A DNA stretch of 64,000 nt, taken from positions 25,015 through 89,014 of the forward strand of contig DLGJ01000015.1 of NCBI GenBank assembly GCA_002482645.1. Reading direction: 5' to 3'. Position 1 is the first letter of the stretch. Every line of letters begins with the position of its first letter. Under the pieces are notes generated by a model. It was not told where the DNA came from. It saw only the letters and a list, made by a program, of their open reading frames with translations, and did not search any database. The stretch is from Hyphomicrobiaceae bacterium UBA7697. GTDB lineage: Bacteria > Pseudomonadota > Alphaproteobacteria > Rhizobiales > Methyloligellaceae. A program made the position numbers and the translations under genes. Positions 9,125 through 64,000 of the stretch are shown one piece after another.

Positions 9125-9289
9125 ATGGATATAAATCAGGCCGTAACGGTGTTTGGCGTGCTGGCGCAGGAGTGCCGGCAGACGACGTCCCGGCCACGGG
9201 GCGAGGCCGGACGGTGTGGCGATGGAGCATTGCCGCCCGGCGCATCGTCCAGTTGCGGCCCGCGGATCGAATCGGTCCTCGCGACGTAG
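9125..9289 (+). pseudogene. Probable truncated and degenerate ArsR-family repressor remnant
   Basis: MDINQAVTVFGVLAQECR...GEAG resembles ArsR helix 1; stops after ~54 codons; directly upstream of arsC, with TTGACA at 9089 and an AT-rich operator-like stretch. Confidence 0.5.
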
Positions 9290-9316
9290 TGTTGAGATTG
9301 AAGGGAGGAAACCGAC

Positions 9317-9904
9317 ATGACGACCGCCGACCCAAAGTCCACGACGACCGGCAAGTCCACGACGACCGGCAAATCTGCAACGGCCAGCAAGGCCCCGCTA
9401 AACGTTCTTTTTCTTTGCACCGGCAACTCTGCCCGCTCGATCATGGCCGAGTGCATCATGAACCGCGAAGGCATGGGCAAATTCAAAGCCTACAGCGCCG
9501 GAAGCATGCCGGCGGGCCAGGTGAACCCGATTGCTCTCAATCTCCTGAAAAAGCTGAACTATGACGTGACGCATTTGCGATCCAAGTCCTGGGAGGAATT
9601 CGCCGCCCCGGATCCACCGGTCTTCGACTTCGTGTTTACGGTGTGTGACAATGCCGCAAGGGAGACTTGCCCCGTCTGGCCAGGGCAGCCCATGTCGGCC
9701 CATTGGGGCATGCCCGACCCGGCCGCCGCCGAAGGCAGCGACGCCGAGCGCGCCCTCGCCTTCGACGACGTCTACCGCATGCTGAACCAGCGCATTTCGA
9801 TCTTCATAAACCTCCCGTTCGAGAGTTTGAGCCGGCTCTCGCTTCAAGAACATCTGGACCGGATTGGCGCGCGGGGTGCCGCGGCTTCCAAGGAACCAGC
9901 CTAG
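9317..9904 (+). CDS. arsC: Arsenate reductase ArsC (LMW-PTP fold)
   Basis: NVLFLCTGNSARSIMAE P-loop; TVCDNAARETCPVWPG; HWGMPDPA. Confidence 0.92.
   Translation: MTTADPKSTTTGKSTTTGKSATASKAPLNVLFLCTGNSARSIMAECIMNREGMGKFKAYSAGSMPAGQVNPIALNLLKKLNYDVTHLRSKSWEEFAAPDPPVFDFVFTVCDNAARETCPVWPGQPMSAHWGMPDPAAAEGSDAERALAFDDVYRMLNQRISIFINLPFESLSRLSLQEHLDRIGARGAAASKEPA
9335..9388. repeat. 18-bp tandem duplication in the arsC 5' end
   Basis: aagtccacgacgaccggc x2 identical plus a third degenerate copy (KSTTTG repeats). Confidence 0.85.
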
Positions 9905-9933
9905 CGGCACGGGTCCCGGCCCGGCGCATCGCG

Positions 9934-9962
9934 TTGACAAGGCTCAGGCCGCCTCTTATGTC
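9934..9962 (+). promoter_or_regulatory. Putative sigma70 promoter of secA
   Basis: TTGACA-N17-TATGTC. Confidence 0.5.
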
Positions 9963-10112
9963 TCCGGCGTTGGTCCCCGGCTTTTTTCGCCGTTTCTCTG
10001 GGAGACGGGCGAATCCTCGCCGGAGGTCCCGCACTCCATCCGCCAAGGACCTCCAGGGCTTTCGCAAGAGCCCCGCGCGGCCCGGCTTACGCCATAAGAG
10101 GCTAACGGTTCG

Positions 10113-41989: not shown

Positions 41990-42000
41990 CCCAGCCAAAA

Positions 42001-42027
42001 AGCCCGCGCGGACCCTCCGCGCGGGCT
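42001..42027 (+). terminator. Strong hairpin after the repeat-protein gene (terminator or mRNA stabiliser)
   Basis: agcccgcgcgg-accct-ccgcgcgggct followed by gctctttct. Confidence 0.75.
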
Positions 42028-42117
42028 GCTCTTTCTCAAATAAGAACGAAATTAGCAGGGAGACTTGGATAGAGGCGCCAAGAGCTGGACCAAGAGAAGT
42101 TTGGCGTGGAGGCATCG

Positions 42118-51135: not shown

Positions 51136-52221
51136 ATGTCCCTCATCCGCCCTTCCCTGTTCACCAACAAGCTCGTCAACGCGATGTTCTCGGCCGCATT
51201 GGCGTTGTCTGTGGTGTGCGCTCCGGCATACGGCCATGCATGCACCCGCATCGTTTATCTCGGCGCCGGCAGCACCGTACTCACCGCGCGATCCATGGAC
51301 TGGAAGTCCGATGTCGCCACCAATCTCTGGATCTTCCCGCGCGGCATGGCGCGCAAGGGCCAGGCGGGCGAAAATTCGATCGCGTGGACCTCGAAATACG
51401 GCAGCGTCATCGCGTCCGGGTACGATATTTCCACGACCGACGGAATGAACGAGAAGGGACTTGTGGCCAACGTCCTGTGGCTCGTCGAGTCCGAGTACCC
51501 GCCCGCCACCAGCGACAAGCCCGGTCTGACCATCGCCGCCTGGGCTCAGTATGTGCTCGACAACTTCGCCACCGTGGCCGAGGCGGTCGAGGTGCTGGAG
51601 ACCGAGCCTTTCGTGGTTGTCACCGATGCGGTACCCGGCGAGGAGCGGCTCGCCACGCTACACTTGTCGATTTCGGACGCCACGGGCGACAGCGCCATTA
51701 TCGAATATATCGACGGCAAACAGGTGATCCATCACGACAGGTCGTATCAGGTGATGACCAATTCGCCCGCCTTCGACAAGCAGCTTACCCTTGACGATTA
51801 TTGGAAACAGATCGGCGGCACGGTCTTTCTGCCAGGAACCAACCGGGCGGCGGACCGGTTCGCCCGTGCCTCGTTCTACGTCAACGCGATTCCGAAATTT
51901 GACGATCCGAATCTCGCGGTTGCCGGAGTGCTCTCGGTCATCCGCAACGTCTCGGTCCCGTTCGGTATCTCGACCCCGGATCACCCGAACATTTCATCGA
52001 CACGCTGGCGTACTGTCGCCGATCAGGAACGTAAGGTCTATTTCTTCGAATCCGCGCTTACGCCGAACACGTTCTGGGTCGATCTGAAGAAAGTCGATTT
52101 CTCCGCCGAGACCGGCAAGGTGATGAAGCTCGATCTCGGACCGAACCAGAGCAAGACCTATTCGGGCGATGCGACGGCGAAATTCGAGGCGGCAACGCCG
52201 TTCAAGTTCCTCGGGAAGTAA
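51136..52221 (+). CDS. Linear amide C-N hydrolase (choloylglycine hydrolase/penicillin V acylase family), exported
   Basis: Signal peptide then CTR nucleophile; ARSMDW; DGMNEKGL; MTNSP; RFARA. Confidence 0.92.
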   Translation: MSLIRPSLFTNKLVNAMFSAALALSVVCAPAYGHACTRIVYLGAGSTVLTARSMDWKSDVATNLWIFPRGMARKGQAGENSIAWTSKYGSVIASGYDISTTDGMNEKGLVANVLWLVESEYPPATSDKPGLTIAAWAQYVLDNFATVAEAVEVLETEPFVVVTDAVPGEERLATLHLSISDATGDSAIIEYIDGKQVIHHDRSYQVMTNSPAFDKQLTLDDYWKQIGGTVFLPGTNRAADRFARASFYVNAIPKFDDPNLAVAGVLSVIRNVSVPFGISTPDHPNISSTRWRTVADQERKVYFFESALTPNTFWVDLKKVDFSAETGKVMKLDLGPNQSKTYSGDATAKFEAATPFKFLGK

Positions 52222-53977
52222 CGCTCGCAGCCGCCTCGCTCCGCGCGGAGCCTTTCCCGCATCCCCCTCGCGGCTGTCCGTCTCGGGCTTCGTACGGGCC
52301 CAAAACCTCGCCGGCCGAATCTCTGGCGAGATAGGTGGTTTGCGATGGGAAGGCAAACGCAGCGCCGGCCTCGTCGATAATCTCGGCGATCGCCAAGAAG
52401 AGTTCTTCCTGAATCGCGAGAAACGCCGCGTGTGCCGTCGTATCGAGATAGGCGTAGACCTCGACCTTGATCGACCAGTCCCCGAAGCCGACGACATGCA
52501 CGCGCGGAGGGGCGATATCCTGCCTCACTTTCGCATGAGAGAAGAGGAGATCGCGGATGCTGTTGCAGACGGAACGCAACTGCTCTGTGGTCGTCTCGTA
52601 TCGCAGGTCCAAGACGTGCAAAAACAGCATCTGATCGCGCAGCGCATAGTTCGTCACCTGCGTCTTGGCGAACATCGCATTGGGCACCGAAGTCACGGTG
52701 CGATCGGTGCCGCGGATCCGCGTCGATCTCAGCCCGATATACTCGACCGTACCCTTGATGCCGGCATAGTCGCAAAAATCGCCCACACGAACGGGACGGT
52801 CCGCATAGAGATTGAGCCCGCCGAGCAGATTCTCCAAGCTGTTCTGAGCTGCCAGAGCGACGGCCAGACCGCCCACGCCGAGACCGGCCAGAACTCCGAG
52901 AACGGGCAGCCCCAGTTGTTGGGCGCCATAGGCGGCGATGATCGCCACAGCCAGGATCCCAAGAACGCGGCCGAGCAGCCTGAGAAGATTGGCGTCCAGG
53001 CTCTGGTCGGGAATCTGGGGCGACGTGACCACCCATTCCACAACAATCGAGATGAAGAGCCACGCAACCCACGCAGCGGCCACGTAGAAAGCGATTTGCA
53101 GCACAACGTCGACCACGTCGGCGAAGGCGCCGAGAACCATGATTTGCTCGGTAATCAGCAACCCGGCGCCAAAGATCGCGATCAACATGGCAACCGGCAG
53201 CACGAGGCGGCGCAGATAAGTCGCCAGCGGCCGTGAGCCCGCCCTCGGCTTCGTGAGCTGTCTGAGCAGAAGCATCGCGGCCACAAGACAGAGAAAGACG
53301 CCGGCCGCGGCGATGATCTTCCAAAGCGGTGTATCGAGGACGGGCCTTTTCAACGCGCGCGGCAAGGAGCGGGTAAGCTCCGGAGGAATCATCCAGCCGT
53401 GGAACTGAAGTTGCGCTTCGCGCCAGTTGGGCACCTCGGAAGGCATCTTCAAGGGAAGATTCTTCGTCAGATCGTAGAACTCTCCAGCCCTGGCTACCGT
53501 GTCCGCGTTGAAGAGGAATTGCCCCTGCGCCGGTCCCTCCATCACGCGGCTAATCGTGATTTCGGTGCCGGGGATGGTCCAGCTTGCAGGCGCCTCCCCA
53601 TCGGGAAAGTCGTCGGCGTCGGGGATCGTGTCCAGCGGGGGAAGCTCGATGCGGCGCAACGTATCGACGAGGAACACGACCGCATCGCCACCAATTTCGC
53701 GCCTTGCACTGGGGCGCACGTGGCTTAGATCGAGCGTTCTGAGCGCTTTGCGCATCAGCGCCTCCGCCTCGGCCTGCGCCTTGGGGCCCGGCTCGGAACG
53801 CAGCTTGATCGCGGCGGACTCGAGCGCATGGGTGACATCGAGAAACGTCTCCATCGTCGCCCGGGGGCTCGACGTATCGATCGCAAAAAGAGGGTTGGAT
53901 GTCTCCGCCCAAGCTCCGCTTGTGAGAAAGGACAATGCGCCGAATAAGGCAAGCCAATGCCAGTGTCTTCCAACCAA
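52202..53977 (-). CDS. MscS family mechanosensitive channel with periplasmic N-domain
   Basis: IDTSSPRATM; GLGVGGLAVALAAQNSLENL; DRPVRVGD; IGLRSTRIR; AFAFPSQT. Confidence 0.9.
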   Translation of the reverse strand: MVGRHWHWLALFGALSFLTSGAWAETSNPLFAIDTSSPRATMETFLDVTHALESAAIKLRSEPGPKAQAEAEALMRKALRTLDLSHVRPSARREIGGDAVVFLVDTLRRIELPPLDTIPDADDFPDGEAPASWTIPGTEITISRVMEGPAQGQFLFNADTVARAGEFYDLTKNLPLKMPSEVPNWREAQLQFHGWMIPPELTRSLPRALKRPVLDTPLWKIIAAAGVFLCLVAAMLLLRQLTKPRAGSRPLATYLRRLVLPVAMLIAIFGAGLLITEQIMVLGAFADVVDVVLQIAFYVAAAWVAWLFISIVVEWVVTSPQIPDQSLDANLLRLLGRVLGILAVAIIAAYGAQQLGLPVLGVLAGLGVGGLAVALAAQNSLENLLGGLNLYADRPVRVGDFCDYAGIKGTVEYIGLRSTRIRGTDRTVTSVPNAMFAKTQVTNYALRDQMLFLHVLDLRYETTTEQLRSVCNSIRDLLFSHAKVRQDIAPPRVHVVGFGDWSIKVEVYAYLDTTAHAAFLAIQEELFLAIAEIIDEAGAAFAFPSQTTYLARDSAGEVLGPYEARDGQPRGGCGKGSARSEAAASVTSRGT

Positions 53978-54468
53978 ACTCGATTTCCTTTCCTGTTCCG
54001 TGCCCTGCGCACGCTGCGGCCCTCATCGGAGCTTTCCGGTCCCGTCAGTGTATCGTTGCTGACCGGAAAACATAAAACGCCGGCAACGCCAAAACGTTGG
54101 GGCCGAACGCCGAGCGACCGCATGCGGAAAGAGTGCCAAGACGGCCCGGCAAACGCCACTGGGACACATGACCCCAGTGGAACACACGACCCAAGGACGG
54201 CAGAGAACCGCTTGCGGTTGCGGGGGGTGGTGGCTCCGGCATTGTGCGAGCGAAGACCGTGCGTCAGATCCACGGCATCGACGCACCGGGCACGGCCGTC
54301 ATACGCCGGCCGCCCGTCTCCCTCCCCTTCAAAAGAAAAGGCCCGACCGCCAAGATGGACGGCCGAGCAAGGGGAGGAGACATTACGGCGAAGGATCGCT
54401 TCGAGTTCTTACACTGTCGACTGAAGCGATCCCTCACTCCGTAATTACAAACGAAGTCTTGTTCGTGC

Positions 54469-55335
54469 TTATTTAACGCCTATGGGGATAATGATGTTCG
54501 TCCAGAACGCGGTTTCTTTAGCCCCATAGTTCTCTTCGTAGACGTCTTGGGTCAGCTTGCCCTGTAACGTCAGTGGACCGAAGTTGTATCCAACAAGTCC
54601 ACCCACGGCGACCTGACTCTGTTTGAAGCCACGCCCCGCCGAGTCGAGATCGGACGACGCATAACCAACCGGTCCGACGCTCCACTTGCCGAACGACTTC
54701 AGCAGATGCCAATCGAGGATGTAATAGTCCGGCGCATGATCGGCCCAGCCGGCCCCGACGGGCGTACCGAAGATGTTGTTCACCAAAACGGAAATGCCGT
54801 TGTGATCGTAGCTAAGCCCGAACCTGTTCTCGATTGCGCCGTAGTCGAACGCGACTTCGCCGTCCTGAGGAATATAGCCGCTGAACCGGTAGCCGAAGCG
54901 TAGTCCCTCAATCCCCGTCGCCCAGGATATCTGCGCTCCGAAATATGTATTGTACATTCCGATCCTATAGGGACCGGGATTGCTCGAGACTTCGAAAAGC
55001 GTCGGAGCAACCACGAAGGACAAGGGGCCCCCAGCCAGTTCCCACGGGCTTTGGTAGTACATGAAGAAGACATTGGCATTGGAGCGAATGTCCATGTTCT
55101 GCGGATCTCTGTAGGCGGAGAGATGTTGGTTCACATAGTAAAAACCAACCGGGAGATCCGCATACACTGGGATACCGGGGGTGAACCCGGGGGCGCTCAT
55201 GCCCCCGGCTTGCACCTTGTCCACGCGAACGAGGTTTCCCAGCACCAGCGTTGCCACCAGAATTGAGCAAGCAACGCACACCTTACGCGCCAGACTTTTG
55301 CCTTTAGCGCACACTTTTACTGTTTTGTTCTGCAT
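54469..55335 (-). CDS. Outer-membrane beta-barrel, SphA / MetA-pathway-of-phenol-degradation family
   Basis: Signal peptide; PGFTPGIP..LPVGFY; alternating beta strands; WSVGPVGY; last gene of the catabolic operon. Confidence 0.7.
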   Translation of the reverse strand: MQNKTVKVCAKGKSLARKVCVACSILVATLVLGNLVRVDKVQAGGMSAPGFTPGIPVYADLPVGFYYVNQHLSAYRDPQNMDIRSNANVFFMYYQSPWELAGGPLSFVVAPTLFEVSSNPGPYRIGMYNTYFGAQISWATGIEGLRFGYRFSGYIPQDGEVAFDYGAIENRFGLSYDHNGISVLVNNIFGTPVGAGWADHAPDYYILDWHLLKSFGKWSVGPVGYASSDLDSAGRGFKQSQVAVGGLVGYNFGPLTLQGKLTQDVYEENYGAKETAFWTNIIIPIGVK

Positions 55336-55361
55336 AGTTTTCAGTCCCCCTCAAAATATTG

Positions 55362-56687
55362 CTACGCCGGAACGCGACTGGATCGAGGCGAAAGCAACCC
55401 AAACAGTAGAAAACTGCTGATGACTGTGGCTGGGGCTGAAAACAGCTTGGTCTCTGGGATCATCAACAAGACTATCCCGATAATAACCGCAGAGATCCAC
55501 GCAATCATTCCCGGAGCGTAGTACGCCGGATATTGATCGTCGGGCTTGGCACCCTCGGTTCCGTCGTAGTCTTCGAGAAGAATATAGGCCAGCGTTACAC
55601 CAACCCACGCCACGACGAAGATTCCTTGATATGCCAGCGCGATGAGCAGGAACTGGAAGATATCCGCAAGCATAAGAAGGTAGACGACGATGCCCACGAT
55701 GATGGCCCACAGCCATTTCGGCCAATGGAGCTTCAGGGTCAGCCGGAAGAACGACTGAGTGTTCACGGTCGAGAGATAGAAGTTCGTGGTATTGATGCGC
55801 GTTTGGCTAATCCACACGAAGAGCATTCCGACCCAGCCCGTCATGAGGATCAGCGCCTTCACGACCGACACCTCGCTCAGCTCCCCTTCGACGGGGATCG
55901 TGTGAACCAGGAAAACGCCAGCCAAGCCGTTTACGAGGAAGGTGAAGACGTAGAACGGCAGGCCAAAGTTGAATATCGCGTGGTAGTTCTCGTCGCTTTT
56001 TCTCCCGAACTTCGCGAAATCGAACGTACACATCATCATCCACCAAACACCCATGAATGCGATGAACACGTTGATCCAGCCGTAGGGAGGCGCGCCGCCT
56101 TCCGGCTCGGACGTAAGCCAAGCGTCATTGTAGCCATACTGTGAAATGGCAAATATAACGATCCCGGCTAGTCCAAGGACATAGAGAGGAAGAAGATAAC
56201 CGTTGAAGCGATCGAGCCAATTCTGAACGCTGCCCAAGATCAACGGAACGCTATACAGGCACACGACGAACGCCGCGACGGCAAAGCTCACCGATGGCCA
56301 GTAAAACGTCGCCGCAGCGGCAACAACGGAACCCTCGAAGACCGCGTAATAGATGCTGCAGATAGCGTAAACAAAGGTCGCAATCGCAGATCCTGCTCGG
56401 CCGAATAACAATCGTGAAAAGAGCGAAACCGATAGGCCCGACTTAATTGCATATCTAACGATCGGTCCATTGATCAACGAGTATACAATAGCGCTGAGGA
56501 TAAGACCGATGATCGTATTGGCAGTTCCGTATGCTTGCGAAAGAACTGCCGAAATAATCATCCAAAACATGGCACTGCAGACCGCCCAGAAGGCCATCGT
56601 CAGGGCCAGGCGTGACATTCGTCCTTCAGGACTTACAGGCTTTTCCGAAAAGTCTAATTCTCCAGTAACGTCAATATTGCTGGACAT
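55362..56687 (-). CDS. Purine-cytosine permease (NCS1-like) transporter
   Basis: About 12 TM helices; GLSVSLFSRLLFG, YYAVFEG, FDFAKFG, QTRINTTNFY. Confidence 0.85.
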   Translation of the reverse strand: MSSNIDVTGELDFSEKPVSPEGRMSRLALTMAFWAVCSAMFWMIISAVLSQAYGTANTIIGLILSAIVYSLINGPIVRYAIKSGLSVSLFSRLLFGRAGSAIATFVYAICSIYYAVFEGSVVAAAATFYWPSVSFAVAAFVVCLYSVPLILGSVQNWLDRFNGYLLPLYVLGLAGIVIFAISQYGYNDAWLTSEPEGGAPPYGWINVFIAFMGVWWMMMCTFDFAKFGRKSDENYHAIFNFGLPFYVFTFLVNGLAGVFLVHTIPVEGELSEVSVVKALILMTGWVGMLFVWISQTRINTTNFYLSTVNTQSFFRLTLKLHWPKWLWAIIVGIVVYLLMLADIFQFLLIALAYQGIFVVAWVGVTLAYILLEDYDGTEGAKPDDQYPAYYAPGMIAWISAVIIGIVLLMIPETKLFSAPATVISSFLLFGLLSPRSSRVPA

Positions 56688-56793
56688 TTTCCGCTCCCGG
56701 TTCGAGATCTATATCTTGATCATTTTTTTGTTTGGTTATTAGGAGCAAGCCCAATCGAGGGCTTGCTCCTATTTATACTTGGCAATACTTGCG

Positions 56794-58803
56794 CTAGGCG
56801 ACCCGCAGTGTTGCTGGTGCCATGTCCTCGGCTGCACCCCAGTACGGCACCGTCCGGCGCTTCAGCATGTCCCGGAAGTCGGCTGTGGTATTGGCCAGGA
56901 GCTCGCCCGATCCCCAATCGACGATCACGCCGTATTGACGGATGAGGTCGAACATATCGAGCTTCTTTTCACGGTAGAGAGCCGCGATCTTCTCCGGATC
57001 TTCGTCCAGCCAAGCAACGCGCTCAGAAGCAATACGTTGACGTTCTGCGATCGTTGCTTGTTCGTCGACTTTATACTCGTTCAATTCCGGATCGATCTCG
57101 ATCACGACCACGCCATAGTCTTTCTTGGCGCGTTCCACGGAGACATATCCGTCGATGACGTCGTCCAGGACCTGATTGACGTCTCGCTTGAGAGGATCGC
57201 CGAGCCCGCCACCGCCGGCGGAGGGCCGCTGCACGGTGTCGCCCTGCTGGAGCGGAACGCCAGAGAAGAGCGAGCCGAGGTAGCGTTCCCCTTCCCGTCC
57301 CTGGTTGATCCACACGCCATGCGGGATCGACGGCAGACCGCCCCACAGACCCCACGTGATGGAGCGCTCGCGGTCGCAACAATAGGAGACGACGGTGCGT
57401 TCGCAGGCGTAGAGGGTGCCGCCCTTTTGGACACCCAGGCCACCACGGAACTCGCCGGGTCCACCCGAATCCACCATGAGCTCGTGGCAGGTCGTCAGAA
57501 CGGGCGAAAGCCGCTCCTGACCTTCGAACGGCTGCGTTCCGAGCTGGACGCCGAACACCGGTCCGGTTGCCGCCCAGCCGTCACGGCCGTTACGAGCGCC
57601 CCAGCCGCCGACCATCCAGTCGTACCACATGAAGTACGGCTTGCCTTCGTGCCGGGTATCGCGCCCGCCGATCAGCAGGTAGTCCAGATTGAACGTACAG
57701 GCCATCGCGCGCTCGGGGAGGATTTCCGCCCAGAGTTCGAAGACCGCGTTCATGATCTTTTCGAACGGTCCAGAGGCAAAGCCCGCGACAGGCGTGGGCC
57801 ATTCCGCGTTGACCACCGAACCGATCGGTCCCGGATCCACGGTCACGACCCGGTAGAATCCCGAGTTCATCGGAATATCGGGCGACTGCATCTTCGTTCC
57901 CGCGACCACGGCCGCAAACGCGCCGCCGTAGCAACAGTTCAGGAAGGAACCGACGGTCTTGGGGTGCGATCCCGTGAGATCGTAATGGACCCGATCCCCG
58001 TCGATCGTCATCTTGACCTTGATCGGCACAAGACCTTCGTCTCCGTCGGGATCGACGTCTTCGTAGTCGGTGGTCTCCCAGGTTCCGTTGGGAAGCTCCG
58101 AAATTCTCTGCCGGGTCATGTCCTCGACGTAGTCTTGAACCTCGGCGAAGGACTTCTTGATGACATCGACGCCGTACTTGTCGCAGAGCCGCTGAATCTC
58201 ACGCTCCGCAAGACGGCACGCTTCCGACTGCGCCTGAAGATCGCCAATGATGTCATTGGGGGCACGCGTGTTGTGCGCGATCAGTTCGGCGACATCCGAA
58301 AGGTAGGTTCCCTTGCTGTAGACGCGAACGGGCGTGATCCGCAGACCTTCGGCCATATGATCGAGGGCGTTCACGTTGAACGACCCCGGTACCGCGCCGC
58401 CGACATCGGCCCAGTGGCCGTTTGCTTGAGCAAACCCAAGCAACTCCCCTTTGTAAAACATCGGTGCAAAGAGGCGCGTGTCGTTAAAGTGAGTTCCACC
58501 TTGGTAAACGTCGTTAATAACGAACACGTCTCCAGGATGTACGTCGTCTTTAAACTTCTTGATGACCGCCTTGGCCGTCAAATGAAGCGTTCCGACATGC
58601 GCGGCGATGTCACCGCTACCCTGCATAATTGTGTCTCCATTCGGATCACAAAGAGCAGATGAGAAGTCTCTCGAATAAATAACGAACGAGTAGCAAGTTC
58701 TAAGAATTTGTTCGGCCATCTGGTCAACGATGTTGACGTAGGCATTCTTAAGAACTTCAAACGTAACCGGATCAAGAGTGCGGCGATCTGTTTTCTGCTG
58801 CAT
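56794..58803 (-). CDS. Hydantoinase B/oxoprolinase family subunit
   Basis: LDPVTFEVL, SRDFSSAL, PGDVFVINDVYQGGTHFND, HWADVGG, DSGGPGEFRGG, GGGGLGDP. Confidence 0.93.
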   Translation of the reverse strand: MQQKTDRRTLDPVTFEVLKNAYVNIVDQMAEQILRTCYSFVIYSRDFSSALCDPNGDTIMQGSGDIAAHVGTLHLTAKAVIKKFKDDVHPGDVFVINDVYQGGTHFNDTRLFAPMFYKGELLGFAQANGHWADVGGAVPGSFNVNALDHMAEGLRITPVRVYSKGTYLSDVAELIAHNTRAPNDIIGDLQAQSEACRLAEREIQRLCDKYGVDVIKKSFAEVQDYVEDMTRQRISELPNGTWETTDYEDVDPDGDEGLVPIKVKMTIDGDRVHYDLTGSHPKTVGSFLNCCYGGAFAAVVAGTKMQSPDIPMNSGFYRVVTVDPGPIGSVVNAEWPTPVAGFASGPFEKIMNAVFELWAEILPERAMACTFNLDYLLIGGRDTRHEGKPYFMWYDWMVGGWGARNGRDGWAATGPVFGVQLGTQPFEGQERLSPVLTTCHELMVDSGGPGEFRGGLGVQKGGTLYACERTVVSYCCDRERSITWGLWGGLPSIPHGVWINQGREGERYLGSLFSGVPLQQGDTVQRPSAGGGGLGDPLKRDVNQVLDDVIDGYVSVERAKKDYGVVVIEIDPELNEYKVDEQATIAERQRIASERVAWLDEDPEKIAALYREKKLDMFDLIRQYGVIVDWGSGELLANTTADFRDMLKRRTVPYWGAAEDMAPATLRVA

Positions 58804-58850
58804 CTTATTCTCCAACTTTTGAATTTTACATTGAAGGACGGGCGCGTTGG

Positions 58851-60905
58851 CTACGAACGCTGCGGCACCTGCATTTTGATGATCAGATATTGGTCCACCT
58901 CGGCGGTAATCCCCGGTGGCACAACGATCGTCGAGTCGAGCTGCTCGATAACGGCCGGACCCTGGACCTGGGCTCCTGCGTGCAGGCTGGCCCGATCGTA
59001 GATCGGCGTTTCGATTCGCTGCTCTTCTTCGTCAAACCGCACCGGCCGGGTACCGATCGGAGCCGGAGGCTCTTTCGGACCGAGCGGGTGCTTTGCAAGC
59101 TCCGCCTTTCGGTTCAGCCCAGTGGCACGAACTTGGATGCGGCAGATTTCGACGGGGGCGTCCGGACGCGAGTAGTTGTGCTCGCGGCCATGCTCCTGAT
59201 GGAACTTTCGAACCGCCTCCTTGAGATCGGAGATGTCGGATTCGACGGGAATCGACATCGAGCGCCACTGACCCAAGTAACGCATGTCGATAAACCGCTC
59301 GAACATCATACGGTCCGGCGCGATATCTTCATGCGCCAGCCGCTCCCGGCCCTCTTCTTCCATGGCGCGGAATTTGGCGTTCAGGTCGCCGAGATCGGCG
59401 CCATCGACCTTTGCGACGTACATCTGCGTCAGGTCGTGCGTGATATCCACCAGGAGACACCCGAGGGCCGACGTCACACCCGGGTTCGGCGGAACCAGAA
59501 CGACCGGAATGTGCAGATCCCTGGCCAGAGCCACGCCGTGCAGAGCACCCGCGCCGCCGAAGGCAACGAGAGCGAAGTCGCGCGGATCGTATCCCTTACG
59601 CAGCGACACCAAACGCACCGCGTCGGCCATGTTTGCGTTGGCGACCTTGAGAATGGCCAACGCGGCATCCTCGTTGGTCAAACCGAACGGCTGACCGATG
59701 ACGCGCTCGATGGCCTTCTCGGCGAGGTCGACATTCAGCTCGACCCGGCCGCCGGCAAGCTTGCGCCCCAGACGTCCGAGATAGACGTTCGCGTCACAGT
59801 TCGTGGGTTCCGTGCCGCCCCGGTCGTAGCACACAGGACCCGGCTCGGAGCCTGCGGACTGCGGCCCGTTGCGAAGCGCGCCAGCCGCGTCACGCCATGC
59901 CAGCGAACCGCCGCCGGCACCGATGGTGAGAACCTCGATGCTCGGGAAGCGAATAGGATAGCCATACTCCACGTGCCAATCGTTGGTGATATGGAGCTCG
60001 CCATCCGAACACAGACTGATGTCCGTGCTGGTGCCGCCCATATCCAGGCTGATGGAGTTCTTGTAGCCGGCGAGTTCCGCGATGAAGCGGCTCGCAATGG
60101 CGCCTGCGGCAATTCCCGATGCGGCAAGACGGGCGGCAAATTGCGTCGCCCCTTTTGCGGTCATCACGCCGCCGCCGGAGTGGAGCAGAAGCACCTCTCC
60201 TTTGTAGCCACCGGTCTTCATCCGGCCTTCAAGTTCCGCGCCGTAATCGCCAGCGACAGGCGACAGAACCGTATTGGCGACGGTCGTATTGAAACGCTCG
60301 TGCTCGAAGATTTCCGGCATAATCTCGCTGGAAAGCGAAACTTTAATATTCGGGATTTCTTCGAGAAGAATATCCCTCATTTTTTCTTCATTCTTTGAAT
60401 TTACGAATGAATTAACGAAGCAAATAGCGACGTTGGTGATATTCCGCTTCTTGATGATGCGGGCCAGCTCGCGAGCTTCTTTCTCGTCGACCTCTTCAAT
60501 GACCTTGCCGGCATAATCGACACGCTCGCTGACGGACAAACGATCGCGCCGTGCGAGATACGGCGGCGCCATTTCCTTATAGGTGTCCCAAAGATCGTCG
60601 CGCGTTCCGCGGCGAATCTCGATCACGTCGCGAAAGCCTTTGGTGGTGACCATCAGCGCCGGCGGGAATCGGCGCGTGATCAACGCATTCGTGGCGAGCG
60701 TCGTGCCATGCGAGAAAAGGGCGATGTCGTTCAGGGCGACATCGGCCGCATCGATACCGTTAAGCACCCCGTCAATAGGGTCCACCGTTGTCGGTGTCTT
60801 GGCGACGTGGATCTCGCCCGAGTCCTCGTTGAGAACGCAAACGTCAGTAAAGGTGCCACCAACGTCACAGGCAACGCGAACCGACTGCCCAGCTGAGGTA
60901 TTCAT
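58851..60905 (-). CDS. Hydantoinase A/oxoprolinase family subunit (ATP-binding)
   Basis: DVGGTFTD, HGTTLATNAL, DMGGTSTD, IGAGGGS, GPQSAGSEPGP, AFGGAGALH; GGAGGA RBS. Confidence 0.93.
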   Translation of the reverse strand: MNTSAGQSVRVACDVGGTFTDVCVLNEDSGEIHVAKTPTTVDPIDGVLNGIDAADVALNDIALFSHGTTLATNALITRRFPPALMVTTKGFRDVIEIRRGTRDDLWDTYKEMAPPYLARRDRLSVSERVDYAGKVIEEVDEKEARELARIIKKRNITNVAICFVNSFVNSKNEEKMRDILLEEIPNIKVSLSSEIMPEIFEHERFNTTVANTVLSPVAGDYGAELEGRMKTGGYKGEVLLLHSGGGVMTAKGATQFAARLAASGIAAGAIASRFIAELAGYKNSISLDMGGTSTDISLCSDGELHITNDWHVEYGYPIRFPSIEVLTIGAGGGSLAWRDAAGALRNGPQSAGSEPGPVCYDRGGTEPTNCDANVYLGRLGRKLAGGRVELNVDLAEKAIERVIGQPFGLTNEDAALAILKVANANMADAVRLVSLRKGYDPRDFALVAFGGAGALHGVALARDLHIPVVLVPPNPGVTSALGCLLVDITHDLTQMYVAKVDGADLGDLNAKFRAMEEEGRERLAHEDIAPDRMMFERFIDMRYLGQWRSMSIPVESDISDLKEAVRKFHQEHGREHNYSRPDAPVEICRIQVRATGLNRKAELAKHPLGPKEPPAPIGTRPVRFDEEEQRIETPIYDRASLHAGAQVQGPAVIEQLDSTIVVPPGITAEVDQYLIIKMQVPQRS

Positions 60906-61056
60906 CCGATTCCTCCGAATTTTGACATGGTCCAGGCGCGGCCGTCGACGCACGTCGACAGCATCCTGGCGAGACGGAGCTCGCGCGGGCAGACACACCT
61001 GGGGCTACAGCAGACGAGATATCTGCTTGCGACCGTTTGAATTATTGGGATTGTCC

Positions 61057-61079
61057 AAAAGGCGAACGGCTTCGTCCGC
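61057..61079 (-). terminator. Leader attenuator (intrinsic terminator) upstream of the hydantoinase operon
   Basis: Minus strand GCGGACG-AAGC-CGUUCGC-CUUUU. Confidence 0.7.
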
Positions 61080-61102
61080 AGCGGATTAGCGTACCCGCAC
61101 CA

Positions 61103-61159
61103 CTACCTTACGCATTGGCGGGTAGCTGATCACAAAAACATCGCATCTTTGCGACGATG
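61103..61159 (-). promoter_or_regulatory. Candidate ANTAR (AmiR) dual-hairpin RNA element
   Basis: P1 CAUCG-UCGC-AAAGAU-GCGA-UG with A1/G4 hexaloop; P2 CUACC...AAUGCG...GGUAG. Confidence 0.6.
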
Positions 61160-61163
61160 GCCG

Positions 61164-61192
61164 ACATTATTAGGATAGAGAGGATGAGTCAA
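61164..61192 (-). promoter_or_regulatory. Putative sigma70 promoter of the hydantoinase operon
   Basis: Minus strand TTGACT-N17-TAATGT, placing the start site at the base of P1. Confidence 0.65.
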
Positions 61193-61520
61193 GCATGACT
61201 TCAGCATTCGCGTGAAATCGTTGCGAAAGTGCTTGCGTATACCATAATGGCACAAGCAATTATCGAGATAGCGATTGCCCAAATACAACCCGCGGAAAGC
61301 AATCAAACCCTTGAAAACATCGCCATTACCCAGATTGGGCCATTTTCGACGTTGCACCGCACAACGCCCCCGGTGCGCCCCTTGAGCCCCGCACCGGCCA
61401 CGCGCAATTCATGGCAAGACTCGAGCCGACGCGAAGGGAACACAGGTCCGTCCGAGACCGGCCGCCTGCCGGTCTCTGGACTTGCGGCAAGCGACCCAAG
61501 CTAACGGGCGACAACCGGTC

Positions 61521-62177
61521 TCAGACAGATTTGTCCTTCGGCAGAAGATGAAGCATCTCGTTCGCGTTGACGACCGCGGACGCGATCGCCTCGATCGTCG
61601 TCCTCTTGTTCATCGCTTGCTCGCGGAGCGCGTTGTACGCGGCATCCTCGGGTATGCTCCTGATGGCCATCAAGATGGACTTTGCCTTGTCGATATCCCG
61701 CTGCGCCCGCAGCTTTTCCGCAAGGCGCGCCGCCCTCAGCCTTAATCGCGCCTCGCGGCGATGATTATTGACACTTAACAGGATCGTGGCCAGAACGCCG
61801 AAGGTCTGGAGCGGCAACCCGATGACTGCTTGAACCCGCAAGCGGAGCATCTTCTCCACCACAATCGGATTCTCATAGTCGACCACGGCAATCAAGACTG
61901 CCGAAGGATCGTCCGCATCCCAATTCAACTCGATATTGTCCTCAACGAGAGGACCTGCCGAGATTAAAACGACGTCCACATTGTCTTGAATGTTTACGGG
62001 CAGCGGCCAGCAGCGTCTTACGAGACAACCAATTCTGTTCAAGTGCTGCGAAAGCTCTTCGTTCTCTCGATTTTCGGGCTGCAACAACAACACCCGGAGC
62101 CGGCACAAGTCCTTTACGACGATGGGATCGAATCGATCATCATAGGATATGTCGAGTAAGCAATCCATCTCAACCAA
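61521..62177 (-). CDS. AmiR-like ANTAR antiterminator (pseudo-receiver plus ANTAR)
   Basis: RIGCLVRRCWP, VVDYENP, DIDKAKSILM..AYNALREQAM; resembles P. aeruginosa AmiR. Confidence 0.88.
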   Translation of the reverse strand: MVEMDCLLDISYDDRFDPIVVKDLCRLRVLLLQPENRENEELSQHLNRIGCLVRRCWPLPVNIQDNVDVVLISAGPLVEDNIELNWDADDPSAVLIAVVDYENPIVVEKMLRLRVQAVIGLPLQTFGVLATILLSVNNHRREARLRLRAARLAEKLRAQRDIDKAKSILMAIRSIPEDAAYNALREQAMNKRTTIEAIASAVVNANEMLHLLPKDKSV

Positions 62178-62239
62178 TCCTTGTCCCTCGATCGGGCTCT
62201 CTCAATGGTTGCCACGGGCCCGGCAACCCAATGGCTGTC

Positions 62240-63385
62240 CTATAGCGGCAGCGCATTCATCTCAGAGTGCAGATGTCTATGAAACGAACTCACAAGATAC
62301 GGATCCGGTACAACGCGATCCATGATTGCCACGATTTCGAACTGTCCATCGTCGCGGGCACGGCCAATCTTCGGCCAAAGATTGGCGTGGCCGTTCGACG
62401 GATCAATTCGGACTTTCCCCTGCGGGGCTAGGAACTCTCTTCCCAATATCGCCTTACGAAGAACGTCCGGTTCGTCGGTTTCCACTTCGCGAAGCGCATC
62501 GGCAACGAGACCCACCTGAAAATAGGCCGCCTCCCAGCACATGTTGGTTATGACGGGCTGGCCTTTCCATTTCTCGTATTTTTGGAGACACGTCCTGTTC
62601 TCGGCGCTCAAATGCGTCTGAAAATACGTTGCCGACGTGATGTGACCCGCCCCGACGTCGTGCCCCATCACCGCAATGTCGGCCTCGCTTGTGGTCAGGC
62701 TCGCGATGGGCATGGTCCTCGCCGACAGGCCCGCGTCCGCGTAGGCTTGATAGAACTTGATGATGCTATCTCCTACGAAATTACAGAAGATAACGTCCGG
62801 CTGTTTAGCCTTGATATTCTTAACTAATTCGACGAACTCGTAGTTCTTCGCACTGAGTTTCAGATATTGCCGCCCGACGATTTCACCGCCGTCTCTCAAA
62901 ACCATTTCGGTCATGATGCGATCGGATTCGCGCGGCCAAATGTAGTCGGACCCCACCATATAAAAGCGGTTTCTCGACGACTCTAAGAGATATTCCCCCA
63001 GCGGGTAGCTAATTTGATTGGCGACCGCCCCGCAATAAATCGCGTTGCGCGAATATTCGAAGCCTTCGTATTGGGCCGGATAGCACAGCAGTCCATTTTG
63101 CCGCTCCACCGCGCGAAGAGCGGCCTTTCGCGAACTGGACATGTAGCATCCGAATATGATCTTCACGCCAAATTCGATGAGGAGTTTGTTGGCGAGGTCG
63201 TAATACGCATCCGGGTGGCTGCCCGGGTCCAGGAGAAACGGGACGATCTCCCGCCCATTAATGCCTCCGGCGGCGTTGACCTGCTCGATGGCAAACAGCG
63301 TCGCATCCGACATGCCACGCTCTGTCGCGGATGTAACGCCGGTTTGGGAGAATAGGATTCCGACCTTGATAGGCGCACCCGCCAT
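62240..63385 (-). CDS. AmiC-like cytoplasmic amide sensor (PBP1 fold)
   Basis: VGILFSQTG, FGCYMSSSRKA, CYPAQYEGFEYS, GSDYIWPRES; no signal peptide; adjacent to the AmiR-like gene. Confidence 0.88.
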   Translation of the reverse strand: MAGAPIKVGILFSQTGVTSATERGMSDATLFAIEQVNAAGGINGREIVPFLLDPGSHPDAYYDLANKLLIEFGVKIIFGCYMSSSRKAALRAVERQNGLLCYPAQYEGFEYSRNAIYCGAVANQISYPLGEYLLESSRNRFYMVGSDYIWPRESDRIMTEMVLRDGGEIVGRQYLKLSAKNYEFVELVKNIKAKQPDVIFCNFVGDSIIKFYQAYADAGLSARTMPIASLTTSEADIAVMGHDVGAGHITSATYFQTHLSAENRTCLQKYEKWKGQPVITNMCWEAAYFQVGLVADALREVETDEPDVLRKAILGREFLAPQGKVRIDPSNGHANLWPKIGRARDDGQFEIVAIMDRVVPDPYLVSSFHRHLHSEMNALPL

Positions 63386-63686
63386 TTTGTCACTCGCCAA
63401 TGGTTTATTTCGTTCGGCGGTTGGGGTGATCCTCCCCATCGGAACGAAGCCATTCACGGGACGAGACCCAGCGACGCAACGCTCCGTAGCCACAGTTCAA
63501 TCGCAATAGTGGCGAGCGGCTTGTAGCTCGTCAACGAACTTCGAGACATTTTATCCCGGCACGATTCCCGGACATCGCTCGGGCGCCGCATGGCGCGGGT
63601 TCGAGCCGATCCTTTCCAACGCATTGATTTTGACGCCCTGCTGCCGTCACATGCCGCTTCGGAGCGAGCAACACATTGAAGGCGTG

Positions 63687-64000
63687 ATGGCGAACGGGAC
63701 AGTGGACCGCGAGGCCCGGAAGCGGCAGTTCGCCCAGGAACGGATGATCGCGCCCGTCCGCCGCGAATTGCGCACGGCGTCATGGCTCTCGGTCGCGGCC
63801 GGACTCGTCTGGCCGCTCCAGGCCGCGCTGATCGCCTGGGTCATCTCGGCCTGGGTGGATGGTACCGGAACCCCGGAGCGAACCCTGCCCGCGATCGGGG
63901 CCTTCGTCGTCCTGGGCATCGTCCGCGCCGGAATGGAGCGCATTGCGGGCGGCATTCTTTTCCGCGCCGCGGACCGGACCATCGCCCGTGAACGGGAAAC
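63687..64000 (+). CDS. cydD: Thiol reductant ABC exporter subunit CydD (5' part; runs off window)
   Basis: Manual translation MANGTVDREARK..WLSVAAGLVWPLQAALIAW..LGIVRAGMERIAGGILFRAA resembles the CydD N-terminal TM region. Confidence 0.6.
   Translation, partial: MANGTVDREARKRQFAQERMIAPVRRELRTASWLSVAAGLVWPLQAALIAWVISAWVDGTGTPERTLPAIGAFVVLGIVRAGMERIAGGILFRAADRTIARERE

What the first reader, a model, noticed from the sequence alone, without database searches (positions are those of the whole stretch)
54469..63385. AmiC/AmiR-type amide sensing coupled to an ATP-dependent lactam hydrolase operon rather than an amidase
Seen: amiC-like and amiR-like genes precede, on the same strand, hydantoinase/oxoprolinase A and B, an NCS1 permease and an outer-membrane channel. 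No amiE-type amidase is in the block. Known: AmiC/AmiR controls the P. aeruginosa aliphatic amidase by antitermination, and this A/B family includes N-methylhydantoinases and lactamases for caprolactam and N-methylpyrrolidone. Inference: a cyclic amide catabolic module under RNA-level control, with unknown substrate.
Basis: partly seen in the sequence, partly recalled or inferred. Interest (0 to 1): 0.65.

Follow-up and report, generated by a model that had tools for sequence, protein, structure and literature searches.

The report
AmiC/AmiR-controlled ATP-dependent ring-amide hydrolase operon
A sensor/antiterminator pair known for switching on a simple amidase is here, and in about twenty other Alphaproteobacteria, wired to an uncharacterised ATP-driven two-subunit amide hydrolase and its uptake genes, which gives a direct route to that enzyme's unknown substrate.

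Summary
On the minus strand, 54469-63385 holds amiC-like, amiR-like, a 615-nt leader, hyuA, hyuB, a divergent NCS1-type permease and a MetA-type outer-membrane channel. There is no amidase.

The link is not chance. Of the 23 closest AmiR relatives, 21 keep hyuA/hyuB (70-92% identical) next to amiC-amiR, in three gene layouts.

In the relatives, hyuA is preceded by a canonical ANTAR switch: two hexaloop hairpins, the second overlapping a strong terminator. Covariation supports it. The same element recurs before a linked amide/urea-type ABC transporter.

The AmiC proteins of these loci form one clade (100/99). They keep the amide-binding Ser85/Tyr104/Tyr150 and carry their own pocket residues Ala106/Gln107/Trp152.

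HyuAB is only 34-35% identical to caprolactamase and scores far below its cut-off, so it is a separate, uncharacterised clade. The permease family also sits beside other lactam-opening enzymes. The substrate is inferred to be a small neutral lactam or cyclic ureide; this is not shown.

In this window's lineage the second hairpin and terminator are missing. Only P1 fused to a U-run and a distal hexaloop hairpin remain. AmiC, AmiR and the leader are still under purifying selection. RNA-level control is therefore solid for the family but unresolved for this genome.

The parts
62240..63385 (-). amiC-like cytoplasmic amide sensor (381 aa)
   Evidence: Peripla_BP_5 2e-124. PDB 8tg1 5e-77, P. aeruginosa AmiC 1PEA 1e-69, urea-binding UrtA 7s6e 1.5e-53. 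No signal peptide. Ser85/Tyr104/Tyr150/Thr233 kept; Ala106/Gln107/Trp152 are specific to this clade.
61521..62168 (-). amiR-like ANTAR antiterminator (215 aa, ATG at 62168)
   Evidence: AmiR_N 2.6e-28 plus ANTAR 5.9e-13. AmiR 1QO0_D 1e-21 over the full length. dN/dS 0.10 against L089.
61454..61476 (-). 9-bp G+C-rich hairpin after the amiR stop, with no U-run
   Evidence: Read from the sequence: GAGACCGGC-AGGCG-GCCGGTCTC. It lies in a ~290-nt stretch that is absent from L089.
61164..61192 (-). candidate sigma-70 promoter of hyuA: TTGACT-N17-TAATGT
   Evidence: Sequence. A TTGACW hexamer and a -10-like hexamer lie a similar short distance upstream of P1 in L089 and, read by eye, in L002, L009-L015 and L017. 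Not tested experimentally.
61134..61156 (-). P1: hexaloop hairpin CGUCGC[AAAGAU]GCGAUG, directly followed by UUUUU
   Evidence: Matches P1 of model R1 at 19.2 bits, E 0.006, with the 47 positions of P2 and terminator missing. Hairpin energy -7.9 kcal/mol; a competing 11-bp fold pairs the loop's A-run with the U-run, -9.6 kcal/mol. Conserved in L001 and L089.
61092..61124 (-). Pa: 7-bp stem UACCCGC/GCGGGUA with a 19-nt loop
   Evidence: Long-loop hairpins sit at the same place, just before Pb, in the leaders of layouts (i) and (ii) (read by eye).
61062..61079 (-). Pb: second hexaloop hairpin GCGGAC[GAAGCC]GUUCGC
   Evidence: Hexaloop hairpins with G at loop position 4 sit about the same distance before the start codon in relatives: TAGC[AACGAA]GCTA and CAGC[AACGAC]GCTG. 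The G-U pair becomes A-U in L089, and the U-run after Pb is not conserved there.
58851..60905 (-). hyuA: ATP-binding subunit (684 aa; SD GGAGGA at 60910-60915)
   Evidence: Three Hydantoinase_A-family domains. PDB 7hk5 2e-129, caprolactamase CapA 6yra_A 9e-105. DVGGTFTD and DMGGTSTD nucleotide-binding motifs present. NCBIfam CapA 501 bits, below the 1000 cut-off.
56794..58815 (-). hyuB: metal-dependent hydrolytic subunit (673 aa, with a ~90-aa C-terminal extension)
   Evidence: Hydantoinase_B 1.7e-149. 7hk5 7e-86, 6yra_B 6e-85. Asp-His-Asp-His metal ligands of CapB aligned and conserved (with PMC8453981). 78-92% identical across the linked loci.
56740..56771 (-). 13-bp perfect hairpin between hyuB and the permease gene
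   Evidence: No U-run follows on the coding strand; function unknown.
55362..56687 (-). divergent NCS1-type permease (441 aa)
   Evidence: No Pfam or PDB match itself. Homologues carry PF02133 and permease names. 73-75% identical copies follow hyuB in L005, L007 and L009-L015. The same family lies beside CapAB-type and PxpABC-type genes.
54469..55335 (-). outer-membrane channel, Phenol_MetA_deg family (288 aa)
   Evidence: PF13557 2.5e-11. Present only in the window and L001 among the fetched loci.
54331..54368 (-). intrinsic terminator closing the operon
   Evidence: 11-bp stem with 8 G-C pairs, then CUUUUCUUUU.

Best explanation
This is a conserved alphaproteobacterial uptake-and-hydrolysis module.

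Proposed mechanism:
- A cytoplasmic AmiC-type sensor holds the ANTAR protein AmiR inactive until a small amide-type inducer binds.
- Freed AmiR binds hexaloop hairpins in the hyuA leader RNA and allows expression of the operon.
- HyuA uses ATP to activate the amide carbonyl. HyuB, with its Asp-His-Asp-His metal site, opens the ring.
- An NCS1-type permease, and here an outer-membrane channel, bring the substrate in.
- The substrate is most likely a small neutral lactam or cyclic ureide, such as 2-pyrrolidone, valerolactam or a hydantoin-like compound. Its ring-opened product enters central metabolism without dedicated downstream genes.

Shown: gene identities, conserved linkage, the canonical ANTAR attenuator in relatives, and the clade-specific sensor pocket.

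Inferred: the sequestration mechanism (by homology to P. aeruginosa AmiC/AmiR), the ATP-dependent hydrolysis, and the substrate class.

In this genome's lineage the second hairpin and the terminator are missing. AmiR control, if kept, must work through P1 and the distal hairpin Pb in a way that cannot be read from the sequence.
For: Gene identities.

Linkage:
- 21 of 23 closest AmiR loci have hyuAB adjacent, in three layouts: co-directional, divergent, and hyuAB-amiCR-ABC transporter.
- A further metagenome contig, L091, shows the divergent layout.

RNA element in relatives:
- P1 plus P2: 93% of cells paired. P1 plus terminator: 87% paired, with 13 of 17 pairs showing changes on both sides.
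- No shuffle of 500 reached the covariation score, and slid controls fall to 33-50% paired.
- Model R1 also hits sites it was not trained on: downstream of amiR before the ABC transporter or an XRE-cupin gene, and in distant AmiR loci, at 40-64 bits.
- This is the two-hairpin ANTAR architecture of PMC3369931.

Sensor:
- The clade is monophyletic at 100/99.
- Ala106/Gln107/Trp152 occur in 23 of 23 members and in none of the 57 other AmiC proteins, while Ser85/Tyr104/Tyr150 are invariant in all.
- These positions lie within 5 A of the ligand according to PMC13531289.

Substrate class:
- A 51%-identical permease follows a true CapB orthologue (938 bits to 6yra_B) with an AraC regulator in Paracoccus.
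- A 55%-identical one is embedded in a PxpABC-like cluster.

Still in use here:
- amiC dN/dS is 0.046 and amiR 0.10.
- The leader is 85% identical to L089 over 333 nt, although dS is 0.82.
Against: - In the window, R1 finds only P1 plus the U-run. P1 is weak as a terminator, -7.9 kcal/mol against -29.5 for the relatives' terminator.
- The genome has no other canonical site. This genome therefore shows no readable antitermination switch.
- No ligand, activity or expression data exist.
- HyuAB fails the caprolactamase cut-offs.
- One 78% HyuB orthologue (G048) and the 56-60% sister clade have no amiCR nearby and sit among housekeeping genes.
- Two AmiC-clade loci, L003 and L004, have no hyuAB orthologue in their genomes.
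- The sensor and the ABC binding protein belong to a family known for very small amides and urea, which could point to a non-cyclic substrate.
Confidence: 0.6

Rival explanations
1. The regulatory link has decayed in this genome. Loss of P2 and the terminator made hyuAB constitutive from its own promoter, and AmiC/AmiR are kept for another reason.
For: - Only P1 plus a U-run is matched; 47 model positions are missing.
- P1 is a weak hairpin.
- Both hairpins were required in the EutV system (PMC3369931).
- L003 and L004 show that amiCR of this clade can exist without hyuAB.
Against: - amiC and amiR are under strong purifying selection since the loss: dN/dS 0.046 and 0.10 at dS 0.82.
- The leader is 85% identical where neutral sites would be about 50%.
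- No other R1-type target exists in the 3.15-Mb genome.
- Two hexaloop hairpins with G at loop position 4 are retained.
Confidence: 0.3
2. HyuAB is a 5-oxoprolinase for exogenous pyroglutamate, giving glutamate directly.
For: - No downstream catabolic genes are conserved in the cluster.
- The sister clade and one orthologue stand alone among housekeeping genes.
- The family includes oxoprolinases.
- The genome lacks PxpA.
Against: - The genome already has a fused 1226-aa HyuA-HyuB, collinear with the 1288-aa fused protein 7hk5. That is the architecture of eukaryotic-type oxoprolinases.
- The sensor and the alternative ABC binding protein belong to the neutral amide/urea-binding family.
- An anionic ligand fits the AmiC pocket poorly (inference).
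Confidence: 0.15
3. HyuAB is an N-methylhydantoinase or hydantoinase acting on a cyclic ureide, for example from creatinine in wastewater.
For: - The best PDB match of HyuA is an entry named N-methylhydantoinase, 2e-129.
- Gln107 of the sensor is shared with urea-binding UrtA proteins (motif YP[IV]QYEG), hinting at recognition of a ureido group.
- The NCS1 family includes hydantoin and allantoin permeases (names).
- The nearest relative is an activated-sludge MAG.
Against: - No N-carbamoyl-amino-acid amidase or creatinine deaminase is conserved in the clusters.
- The PDB name is the depositor's label. The score to caprolactamase CapB is the same for HyuB (292 against 289 bits).
Confidence: 0.2
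4. HyuAB is an ATP-dependent carboxylase, or a hydrolase of a small non-cyclic amide or ketone, in the manner of acetone carboxylase.
For: - The AmiC/UrtA-type sensor and transporter proteins are known for acetamide- and urea-sized ligands.
- The family includes acetone and acetophenone carboxylases, and the metal tetrad is shared with them.
Against: - Matches to the carboxylases are much weaker than to the lactamases: HyuB 1e-23 to 4e-34 against 6e-85.
- No third, gamma subunit gene is present.
Confidence: 0.07

Closest known systems
Pseudomonas aeruginosa AmiC/AmiR control of the amiE aliphatic amidase operon
   Same: - A cytoplasmic binding-protein-fold sensor paired with an AmiR_N plus ANTAR protein (1PEA 1e-69, 1QO0_D 1e-21).
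- Amide-contacting Ser85, Tyr104, Tyr150 and Thr233 are conserved.
- Relatives use a two-hexaloop-hairpin element overlapping a terminator.
   Different: - The output is HyuAB plus transport genes, not an amidase.
- The regulators lie upstream of, or divergent from, the target instead of inside the operon.
- Pocket positions 106, 107 and 152 are Ala, Gln and Trp.
- In this window P2 and the terminator are absent.
Caprolactamase CapAB of Pseudomonas jessenii and OplBA of P. putida (PDB 6YRA; PMC8453981)
   Same: - Two-subunit ATP-dependent enzyme of the hydantoinase/oxoprolinase family.
- ASKHA nucleotide motifs and the Asp-His-Asp-His metal site.
- A permease of the same family follows the CapAB orthologue in Paracoccus.
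   Different: - Only 34-35% identical, and 501 and 341 bits against NCBIfam cut-offs of 1000.
- Gene order is A-B, not B-A.
- HyuB has an extra ~90 C-terminal residues.
- Control is by AmiC/AmiR rather than an AraC-type activator.
ANTAR riboregulators EutV (Enterococcus) and NasR (Klebsiella) (PMC3369931)
   Same: - Tandem short hairpins with hexanucleotide loops, usually A at position 1 and G at position 4.
- The 3' arm of P2 is shared with an intrinsic terminator.
   Different: - The sensor is a sequestering partner protein, not a kinase or NIT domain.
- Several P1 loops here start with G.
- The window's leader has only P1 next to a U-run, and a second hexaloop hairpin 59 nt away.
UrtA and FmdD amide/urea ABC binding proteins
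   Same: - Same Peripla_BP_5 fold.
- Gln at the position equal to AmiC 107.
- In layout (iii) a full ABC transporter of this type follows amiR behind its own ANTAR element.
   Different: - The window protein has no signal peptide.
- It has AmiC-type Tyr83/Met84.
- It is paired with AmiR, and it scores 304 bits against a UrtA cut-off of 493.
Fused eukaryotic-type 5-oxoprolinase / 'N-methylhydantoinase' (PDB 7hk5, 1288 aa)
   Same: Best structural-database relative of HyuA (2e-129) and equal-best of HyuB.
   Different: The window enzyme is split into two genes. A separate fused 1226-aa gene of this type exists elsewhere in the same genome.

Membership tests
AmiC-type amide sensor | Type I periplasmic-binding-protein fold (Peripla_BP_5) close to P. 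aeruginosa AmiC | tested here: met
   PF13433 2e-124; 1PEA 1e-69 over residues 8-366.
AmiC-type amide sensor | Cytoplasmic: no signal peptide | tested here: met
   The start MAGAPIKVGILFSQTG aligns to AmiC residue 10. The longer GTG-start ORF adds only polar residues. Read by eye; no predictor was run.
AmiC-type amide sensor | Amide-contacting residues Ser85, Tyr104, Tyr150 (and Thr233) | tested here: met
   Invariant in all 80 aligned AmiC proteins. Pocket list from PMC13531289.
AmiC-type amide sensor | Binds acetamide, and binding releases AmiR | not testable with these tools
   Pocket positions 106, 107 and 152 differ (Ala/Gln/Trp), so a different ligand is expected.
AmiR / ANTAR antiterminator | AmiR_N pseudo-receiver plus C-terminal ANTAR domain, encoded next to amiC | tested here: met
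   PF21332 2.6e-28, PF03861 5.9e-13; 1QO0_D 1e-21; 71 nt downstream of amiC.
AmiR / ANTAR antiterminator | Target RNA: two hexaloop hairpins, the second overlapping an intrinsic terminator | tested here: not met
   Window: only P1 plus a U-run, 19.2 bits, with P2 and the terminator absent. Relatives: met, with covariation.
Hydantoinase/oxoprolinase A/B (ATP-dependent) | HyuA three-domain architecture with ASKHA nucleotide-binding motifs | tested here: met
   PF05378, PF01968 and PF19278; DVGGTFTD and DMGGTSTD motifs.
Hydantoinase/oxoprolinase A/B (ATP-dependent) | HyuB domain with the Asp-His-Asp-His metal site | tested here: met
   PF02538 1.7e-149. SRDFS, GGTHFND and NGHW align to the CapB-orthologue ligands (ligands from PMC8453981). 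Read by eye from a pairwise alignment.
Hydantoinase/oxoprolinase A/B (ATP-dependent) | ATP-dependent hydrolysis of a cyclic amide | not testable with these tools
   Needs an enzyme assay.
Caprolactamase CapAB (NCBIfam equivalogs NF050156 and NF050157) | Score at or above the curated cut-off of 1000 bits | tested here: not met
   501.5 and 341.2 bits; 34-35% identity to a true CapAB orthologue.
NCS1 (nucleobase-cation symporter 1) permease | Match to Pfam PF02133 Transp_cyt_pur | tested here: inconclusive
   The window protein has no hit at E up to 10. Homologues at 55-66% identity carry PF02133 and are named purine-cytosine/allantoin permease.
Acetone/acetophenone carboxylase | Extra small subunit and closest similarity to AcxAB/Apc | tested here: not met
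   No third subunit gene. Scores to the carboxylases are far below those to the lactamase-type enzymes.

The most novel reading that the evidence does not exclude
In this lineage AmiR regulates hyuAB through a leader that has lost the second hairpin and the terminator. It retains one hexaloop hairpin fused to a U-run, which can refold into an 11-bp alternative helix, and a second hexaloop hairpin 59 nt downstream behind an intervening stem. That would be a mode of ANTAR action not covered by the two-hairpin/terminator model. At the same time, the Ala106/Gln107/Trp152 AmiC clade would be the first AmiC-type sensor for a lactam or cyclic ureide, and would name the substrate of a new HyuAB clade.
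Probability: 0.3. Interest if true: 0.7.

Novelty: new variant of a known kind. Interest (0 to 1): 0.55.

Why it matters
AmiC/AmiR is a textbook case studied in one operon, the aliphatic amidase. No paper in the searched library joins AmiC and AmiR with a hydantoinase. Neither the ANTAR mechanism paper nor a 2025 review of antiterminators mentions one.

Here a whole clade of the sensor, with its own pocket residues, is wired to a different and uncharacterised enzyme class. Because the inducer of such a sensor is normally the pathway's substrate, a ligand screen on this AmiC is a short route to assigning a function to a HyuAB clade. ATP-dependent lactamases are also of interest for breaking down nylon monomers and solvents.

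The AmiC/AmiR pair has already been engineered as a biosensor (PMC13531289). A natural variant with a larger, more polar pocket would extend that tool.

The truncated but conserved leader in this genome is a natural test of whether both ANTAR hairpins and a terminator are always needed.

Tried and rejected
- Rfam found nothing relevant on 54000-64000.
- The generic terminator scan flagged P1 plus U5 in the leader. Its energy (-7.9 kcal/mol) and comparison with relatives show it is the ANTAR P1 hairpin, not a family-type terminator.
- I looked for a canonical P2 in the window by eye and with R1, filters off. None was found.
- A P1-like string TCGCAACGAT upstream of the promoter (about 61216-61225) lies in a ~290-nt stretch absent from L089 and did not score with R1. 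I left it as unexplained.
- The permease has no PDB or Pfam match.
- Neighbours of the orphan amiCR loci L003 and L004, of the HyuB orthologue without amiCR (L106) and of the sister clade (L102) gave no pathway clue.
- Literature searches for the PDB entries 8TG1 and 9H03 and for a UrtA structure paper found nothing usable. O'Hara 1999 is not held.
- I did not run structure prediction or fold search; sequence evidence was sufficient for the family assignments.

Full report
**What is there**

The minus strand of 54469-63385 carries six genes in one direction.

- An AmiC-like protein of 381 aa starts at the ATG at 63385. It scores Peripla_BP_5 2e-124 and P. aeruginosa AmiC 1PEA 1e-69. Urea-binding UrtA proteins score weaker, and the UrtA model gives 304 bits against a cut-off of 493. 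There is no signal peptide.
- An AmiR-like protein of 215 aa follows after 71 nt. It has AmiR_N plus ANTAR domains, and its best solved relative is AmiR itself (1QO0_D, 1e-21, full length).
- After a 615-nt gap come hyuA (684 aa; start ATG 60905 behind GGAGGA) and hyuB (673 aa).
- Then come a 441-aa membrane protein and a 288-aa outer-membrane protein of the Phenol_MetA_deg family.
- A good intrinsic terminator closes the block at 54341-54368.

None of the six proteins matches an amidase family. The one caveat is the permease: it has no Pfam or PDB match of its own and is NCS1 only through its homologues.

**Is the coupling real?**

I aligned AmiR homologues and scanned one genome per species. 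Among the 23 closest AmiR loci (47-99% identical), 21 have hyuA (58-97%, mostly 70-84%) and hyuB (70-98%, mostly 78-92%) adjacent. Three layouts occur:

- (i) amiC-amiR, then hyuA-hyuB-permease on the same strand: the window, L001, L002, L005-L008 and L016.
- (ii) permease-hyuB-hyuA divergent from amiC-amiR: the Aminobacter/Mesorhizobium loci L009-L015 and metagenome contig L091, and L017 without a detected permease.
- (iii) hyuA-hyuB-amiC-amiR followed by a five-gene ABC transporter whose binding protein is again Peripla_BP_5: Rhodospirillales, Kiloniellales, Paralimibaculum, L018-L023.

Linkage that survives three rearrangements across several orders is strong evidence of a functional unit. 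More distant AmiR loci (41% identity or less) lack hyuAB. The exception is Salipiger (L065), which has an unrelated hyuAB pair (32-35%) upstream of its amiCR. That looks like an independent second case.

**RNA-level control in the family**

Upstream of hyuA, the relatives show a promoter-like TTGACW/-10 pair and then three elements in order:

- P1, a short hairpin with a hexanucleotide loop, for example TCGC[AACGTT]GCGA.
- An 8-12-nt linker, then P2, GAGC[AAAGAA]GCTC.
- A long G+C-rich terminator whose 5' arm is the 3' arm of P2, followed by a U-run.

On an alignment of 17 such leaders, P1 plus P2 is 93% paired and P1 plus terminator 87% paired. Thirteen of 17 pairs show changes on both sides. 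No shuffle of 500 reached the covariation score, and slid controls fall to 33-50% paired.

This is the ANTAR architecture established for EutV, NasR and AmiR, in which both hairpins and loop positions 1 and 4 matter (PMC3369931).

A covariance model of the element (R1) matches the training leaders by construction. It also finds sites it was not built from:

- Between amiR and the ABC transporter in layout (iii).
- Between amiR and an XRE-cupin regulator in Aminobacter.
- Downstream of the orphan amiR in L003.
- In many distant AmiR loci, at 40-48 bits.

Layout (iii) has two such attenuators in tandem before hyuA.

**RNA-level control in this window**

Run with filters off on the whole window, R1 matches only 61131-61159. 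That is P1, CGUCGC[AAAGAU]GCGAUG, joined directly to UUUUUGUG. The 47 model positions of the linker, P2 and the terminator stem are absent (19.2 bits, E 0.006). The string TTTTTGTG is the same one that follows the terminator in L002, so this looks like a clean deletion.

P1 alone folds at -7.9 kcal/mol, against -29.5 for a relative's terminator. It also competes with an 11-bp fold that pairs the loop's A-run with the U-run (-9.6 kcal/mol).

Downstream lie a 7-bp stem with a 19-nt loop (Pa) and a second hexaloop hairpin, Pb, GCGGAC[GAAGCC]GUUCGC. Hexaloop hairpins with G at loop position 4 occupy about the same distance from the start codon in layouts (i) and (ii). They read TAGC[AACGAA]GCTA and CAGC[AACGAC]GCTG, so Pb is an older, conserved part of these leaders. 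The U-run after Pb is not conserved in L001 or L089, so Pb is not a terminator.

The genome is 3.15 Mb and rated 100% complete. It has no other R1-type site and only one other ANTAR protein.

**Is the link still in use here?**

A metagenome contig with an 87%-identical AmiR (L089) has the same truncated leader. The loss therefore predates the split of the two lineages.

Since that split, synonymous divergence in the flanking genes has reached 0.82. Over the same period:

- amiC has dN/dS 0.046.
- amiR has dN/dS 0.10.
- The 333-nt leader is 85% identical, where neutral sites would be near 50% by my estimate from dS.

Sensor, antiterminator and leader are all being maintained. I cannot read a mechanism from the sequence. 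A consensus fold of the three available leaders is too invariant to test. I therefore rate continued, non-canonical AmiR control and regulatory decay as the two live options, and favour the first.

**The sensor**

Residues within 5 A of acetamide in AmiC are 83-85, 88, 104, 106-109, 150, 152, 153, 206 and 233 (PMC13531289). In an alignment of 80 AmiC proteins encoded next to AmiR, Ser85, Tyr104 and Tyr150 are invariant.

All 23 members of the window's clade have Ala106, Gln107 and Trp152. All 57 others have Thr/Ser/Val/Asp106, Leu/Phe/Tyr/Pro/His107 and Tyr/Phe152. The clade is monophyletic at 100/99 support, so this is one shared derived state, not 23 independent events.

Position 106 is the site of the known T106N variant, whose structure is entry 1QNL. 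That this variant changes the response to butyramide is my recollection and was not checked here. Gln at 107 is what urea-binding UrtA proteins carry.

The sensor therefore keeps the amide clamp but has more room and an extra hydrogen-bonding side chain. That fits a ligand larger and more polar than acetamide.

**The enzyme**

- HyuA has the two ASKHA nucleotide motifs. HyuB has the Asp-His-Asp-His ligands that bind zinc in caprolactamase CapB.
- By score, the pair lies about equally far from the fused 1288-aa protein 7hk5 and from caprolactamase 6YRA, and much further from the acetone and acetophenone carboxylases.
- It fails the caprolactamase equivalog cut-offs by a factor of two to three.
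- It is 34-35% identical to a genuine CapAB orthologue from Paracoccus.
- HyuB has about 90 extra C-terminal residues, which are conserved through the clade.
- In a sample of 400 alphaproteobacterial genomes, only one had an orthologue at 78% or more. Five had a 56-60% sister form. These sit alone among housekeeping genes.

**The substrate class**

This is inference. Evidence bearing on it:

- The permease family is informative. A 51%-identical member follows the CapAB-type genes and an AraC regulator in Paracoccus, next to an aminotransferase and an aldehyde dehydrogenase. A 55%-identical member is embedded in a PxpABC-like (LamB/YcsF, 'lactam utilisation') cluster in a Desulfobulbaceae genome.
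- No downstream catabolic gene is conserved with hyuAB, so the ring-opened product should be a common metabolite.
- The genome lacks PxpA but has a separate fused 1226-aa HyuA-HyuB of the eukaryotic oxoprolinase architecture. That makes a housekeeping 5-oxoprolinase role for the window's pair less likely.

I rank the candidates in this order:

1. A small neutral lactam.
2. A hydantoin-type cyclic ureide.
3. Exogenous 5-oxoproline.
4. A small linear amide or ketone, handled by a carboxylase-like reaction.

**Comparison with what is known**

The system works like the P. aeruginosa AmiC/AmiR switch and, in the relatives, like the EutV/NasR riboregulators. Its sensor and regulator pass the sequence-level membership tests for those families. 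It differs in three ways: the controlled enzyme, the sensor's pocket, and, in this window, the absence of the P2/terminator half of the RNA switch.

I found no paper that joins AmiC and AmiR with a hydantoinase. Neither the mechanism paper nor a 2025 review mentions one.

**Verdict**

- This is a new variant of a known kind, of moderate interest, with a clear experimental path.

Noticed in passing
window 51136-52221 (+): A 361-aa choloylglycine-hydrolase-family 'linear amide C-N hydrolase' (PF02275, 1.3e-46). It lies about 2.2 kb beyond the operon's terminator, convergent with it and separated by an MscS-like channel gene (52202-53977, minus strand). I did not check whether it belongs to amide metabolism together with the operon.
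   Followed up: no
window 56740-56771: A perfect 13-bp inverted repeat between hyuB and the permease gene. On the coding strand it is followed by an A-rich stretch, not a U-run, so it is not a classical terminator. It may be an mRNA-processing or stabilising hairpin.
   Followed up: partly
window 61230-61520: About 290 nt between amiR and the hyuA promoter are absent from the 87% relative L089. The stretch contains the string TCGCAACGAT, identical to the P1 5' arm plus loop of L006, but with a 5-nt insertion before the matching GCGA. It is possibly a relic of another attenuator; it did not score with model R1.
   Followed up: partly
G000:C6, locus L116 3256-6936 (+): The same genome encodes a fused 1226-aa HyuA-HyuB protein, collinear with the 1288-aa PDB entry 7hk5. 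It is followed by an FAD-dependent monooxygenase gene. The genome has no PxpA (LamB/YcsF), so this fused gene is the likely housekeeping 5-oxoprolinase.
   Followed up: partly
L010 10808-10883 and 10877-11749 (also L011-L015): In Aminobacter a second canonical ANTAR attenuator lies just downstream of amiR, in front of an HTH_3 plus Cupin_2 regulator gene. AmiR may control a second transcription factor there.
   Followed up: partly
L018 3865-4146, L019 3910-4192, L020 629-906: In the layout with the ABC transporter, two complete ANTAR attenuators stand in tandem before hyuA.
   Followed up: no
L065 (Salipiger pentaromativorans) 4059-10594: A distantly related hyuA-hyuB pair (32-35% identical to the window's) sits directly upstream of a different amiC-amiR pair (AmiC pocket Thr106/His107/Phe152). 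This looks like an independent second coupling of AmiCR to this enzyme family. No R1 hit was found there.
   Followed up: no
L003 (Hyphomicrobium MAG) and L004 (Mesorhizobium sp. Root552): Both carry amiC-amiR of the Ala106/Gln107/Trp152 clade, but their genomes have no orthologue of this HyuB. L003 still has a canonical attenuator after amiR, followed by small ORFs and an MgtC-family gene.
   Followed up: partly
window 41993-42050 (-): Model R1 scores 20.8 bits here, but the match is essentially a strong bidirectional terminator in the type I secretion region, not an ANTAR element.
   Followed up: no
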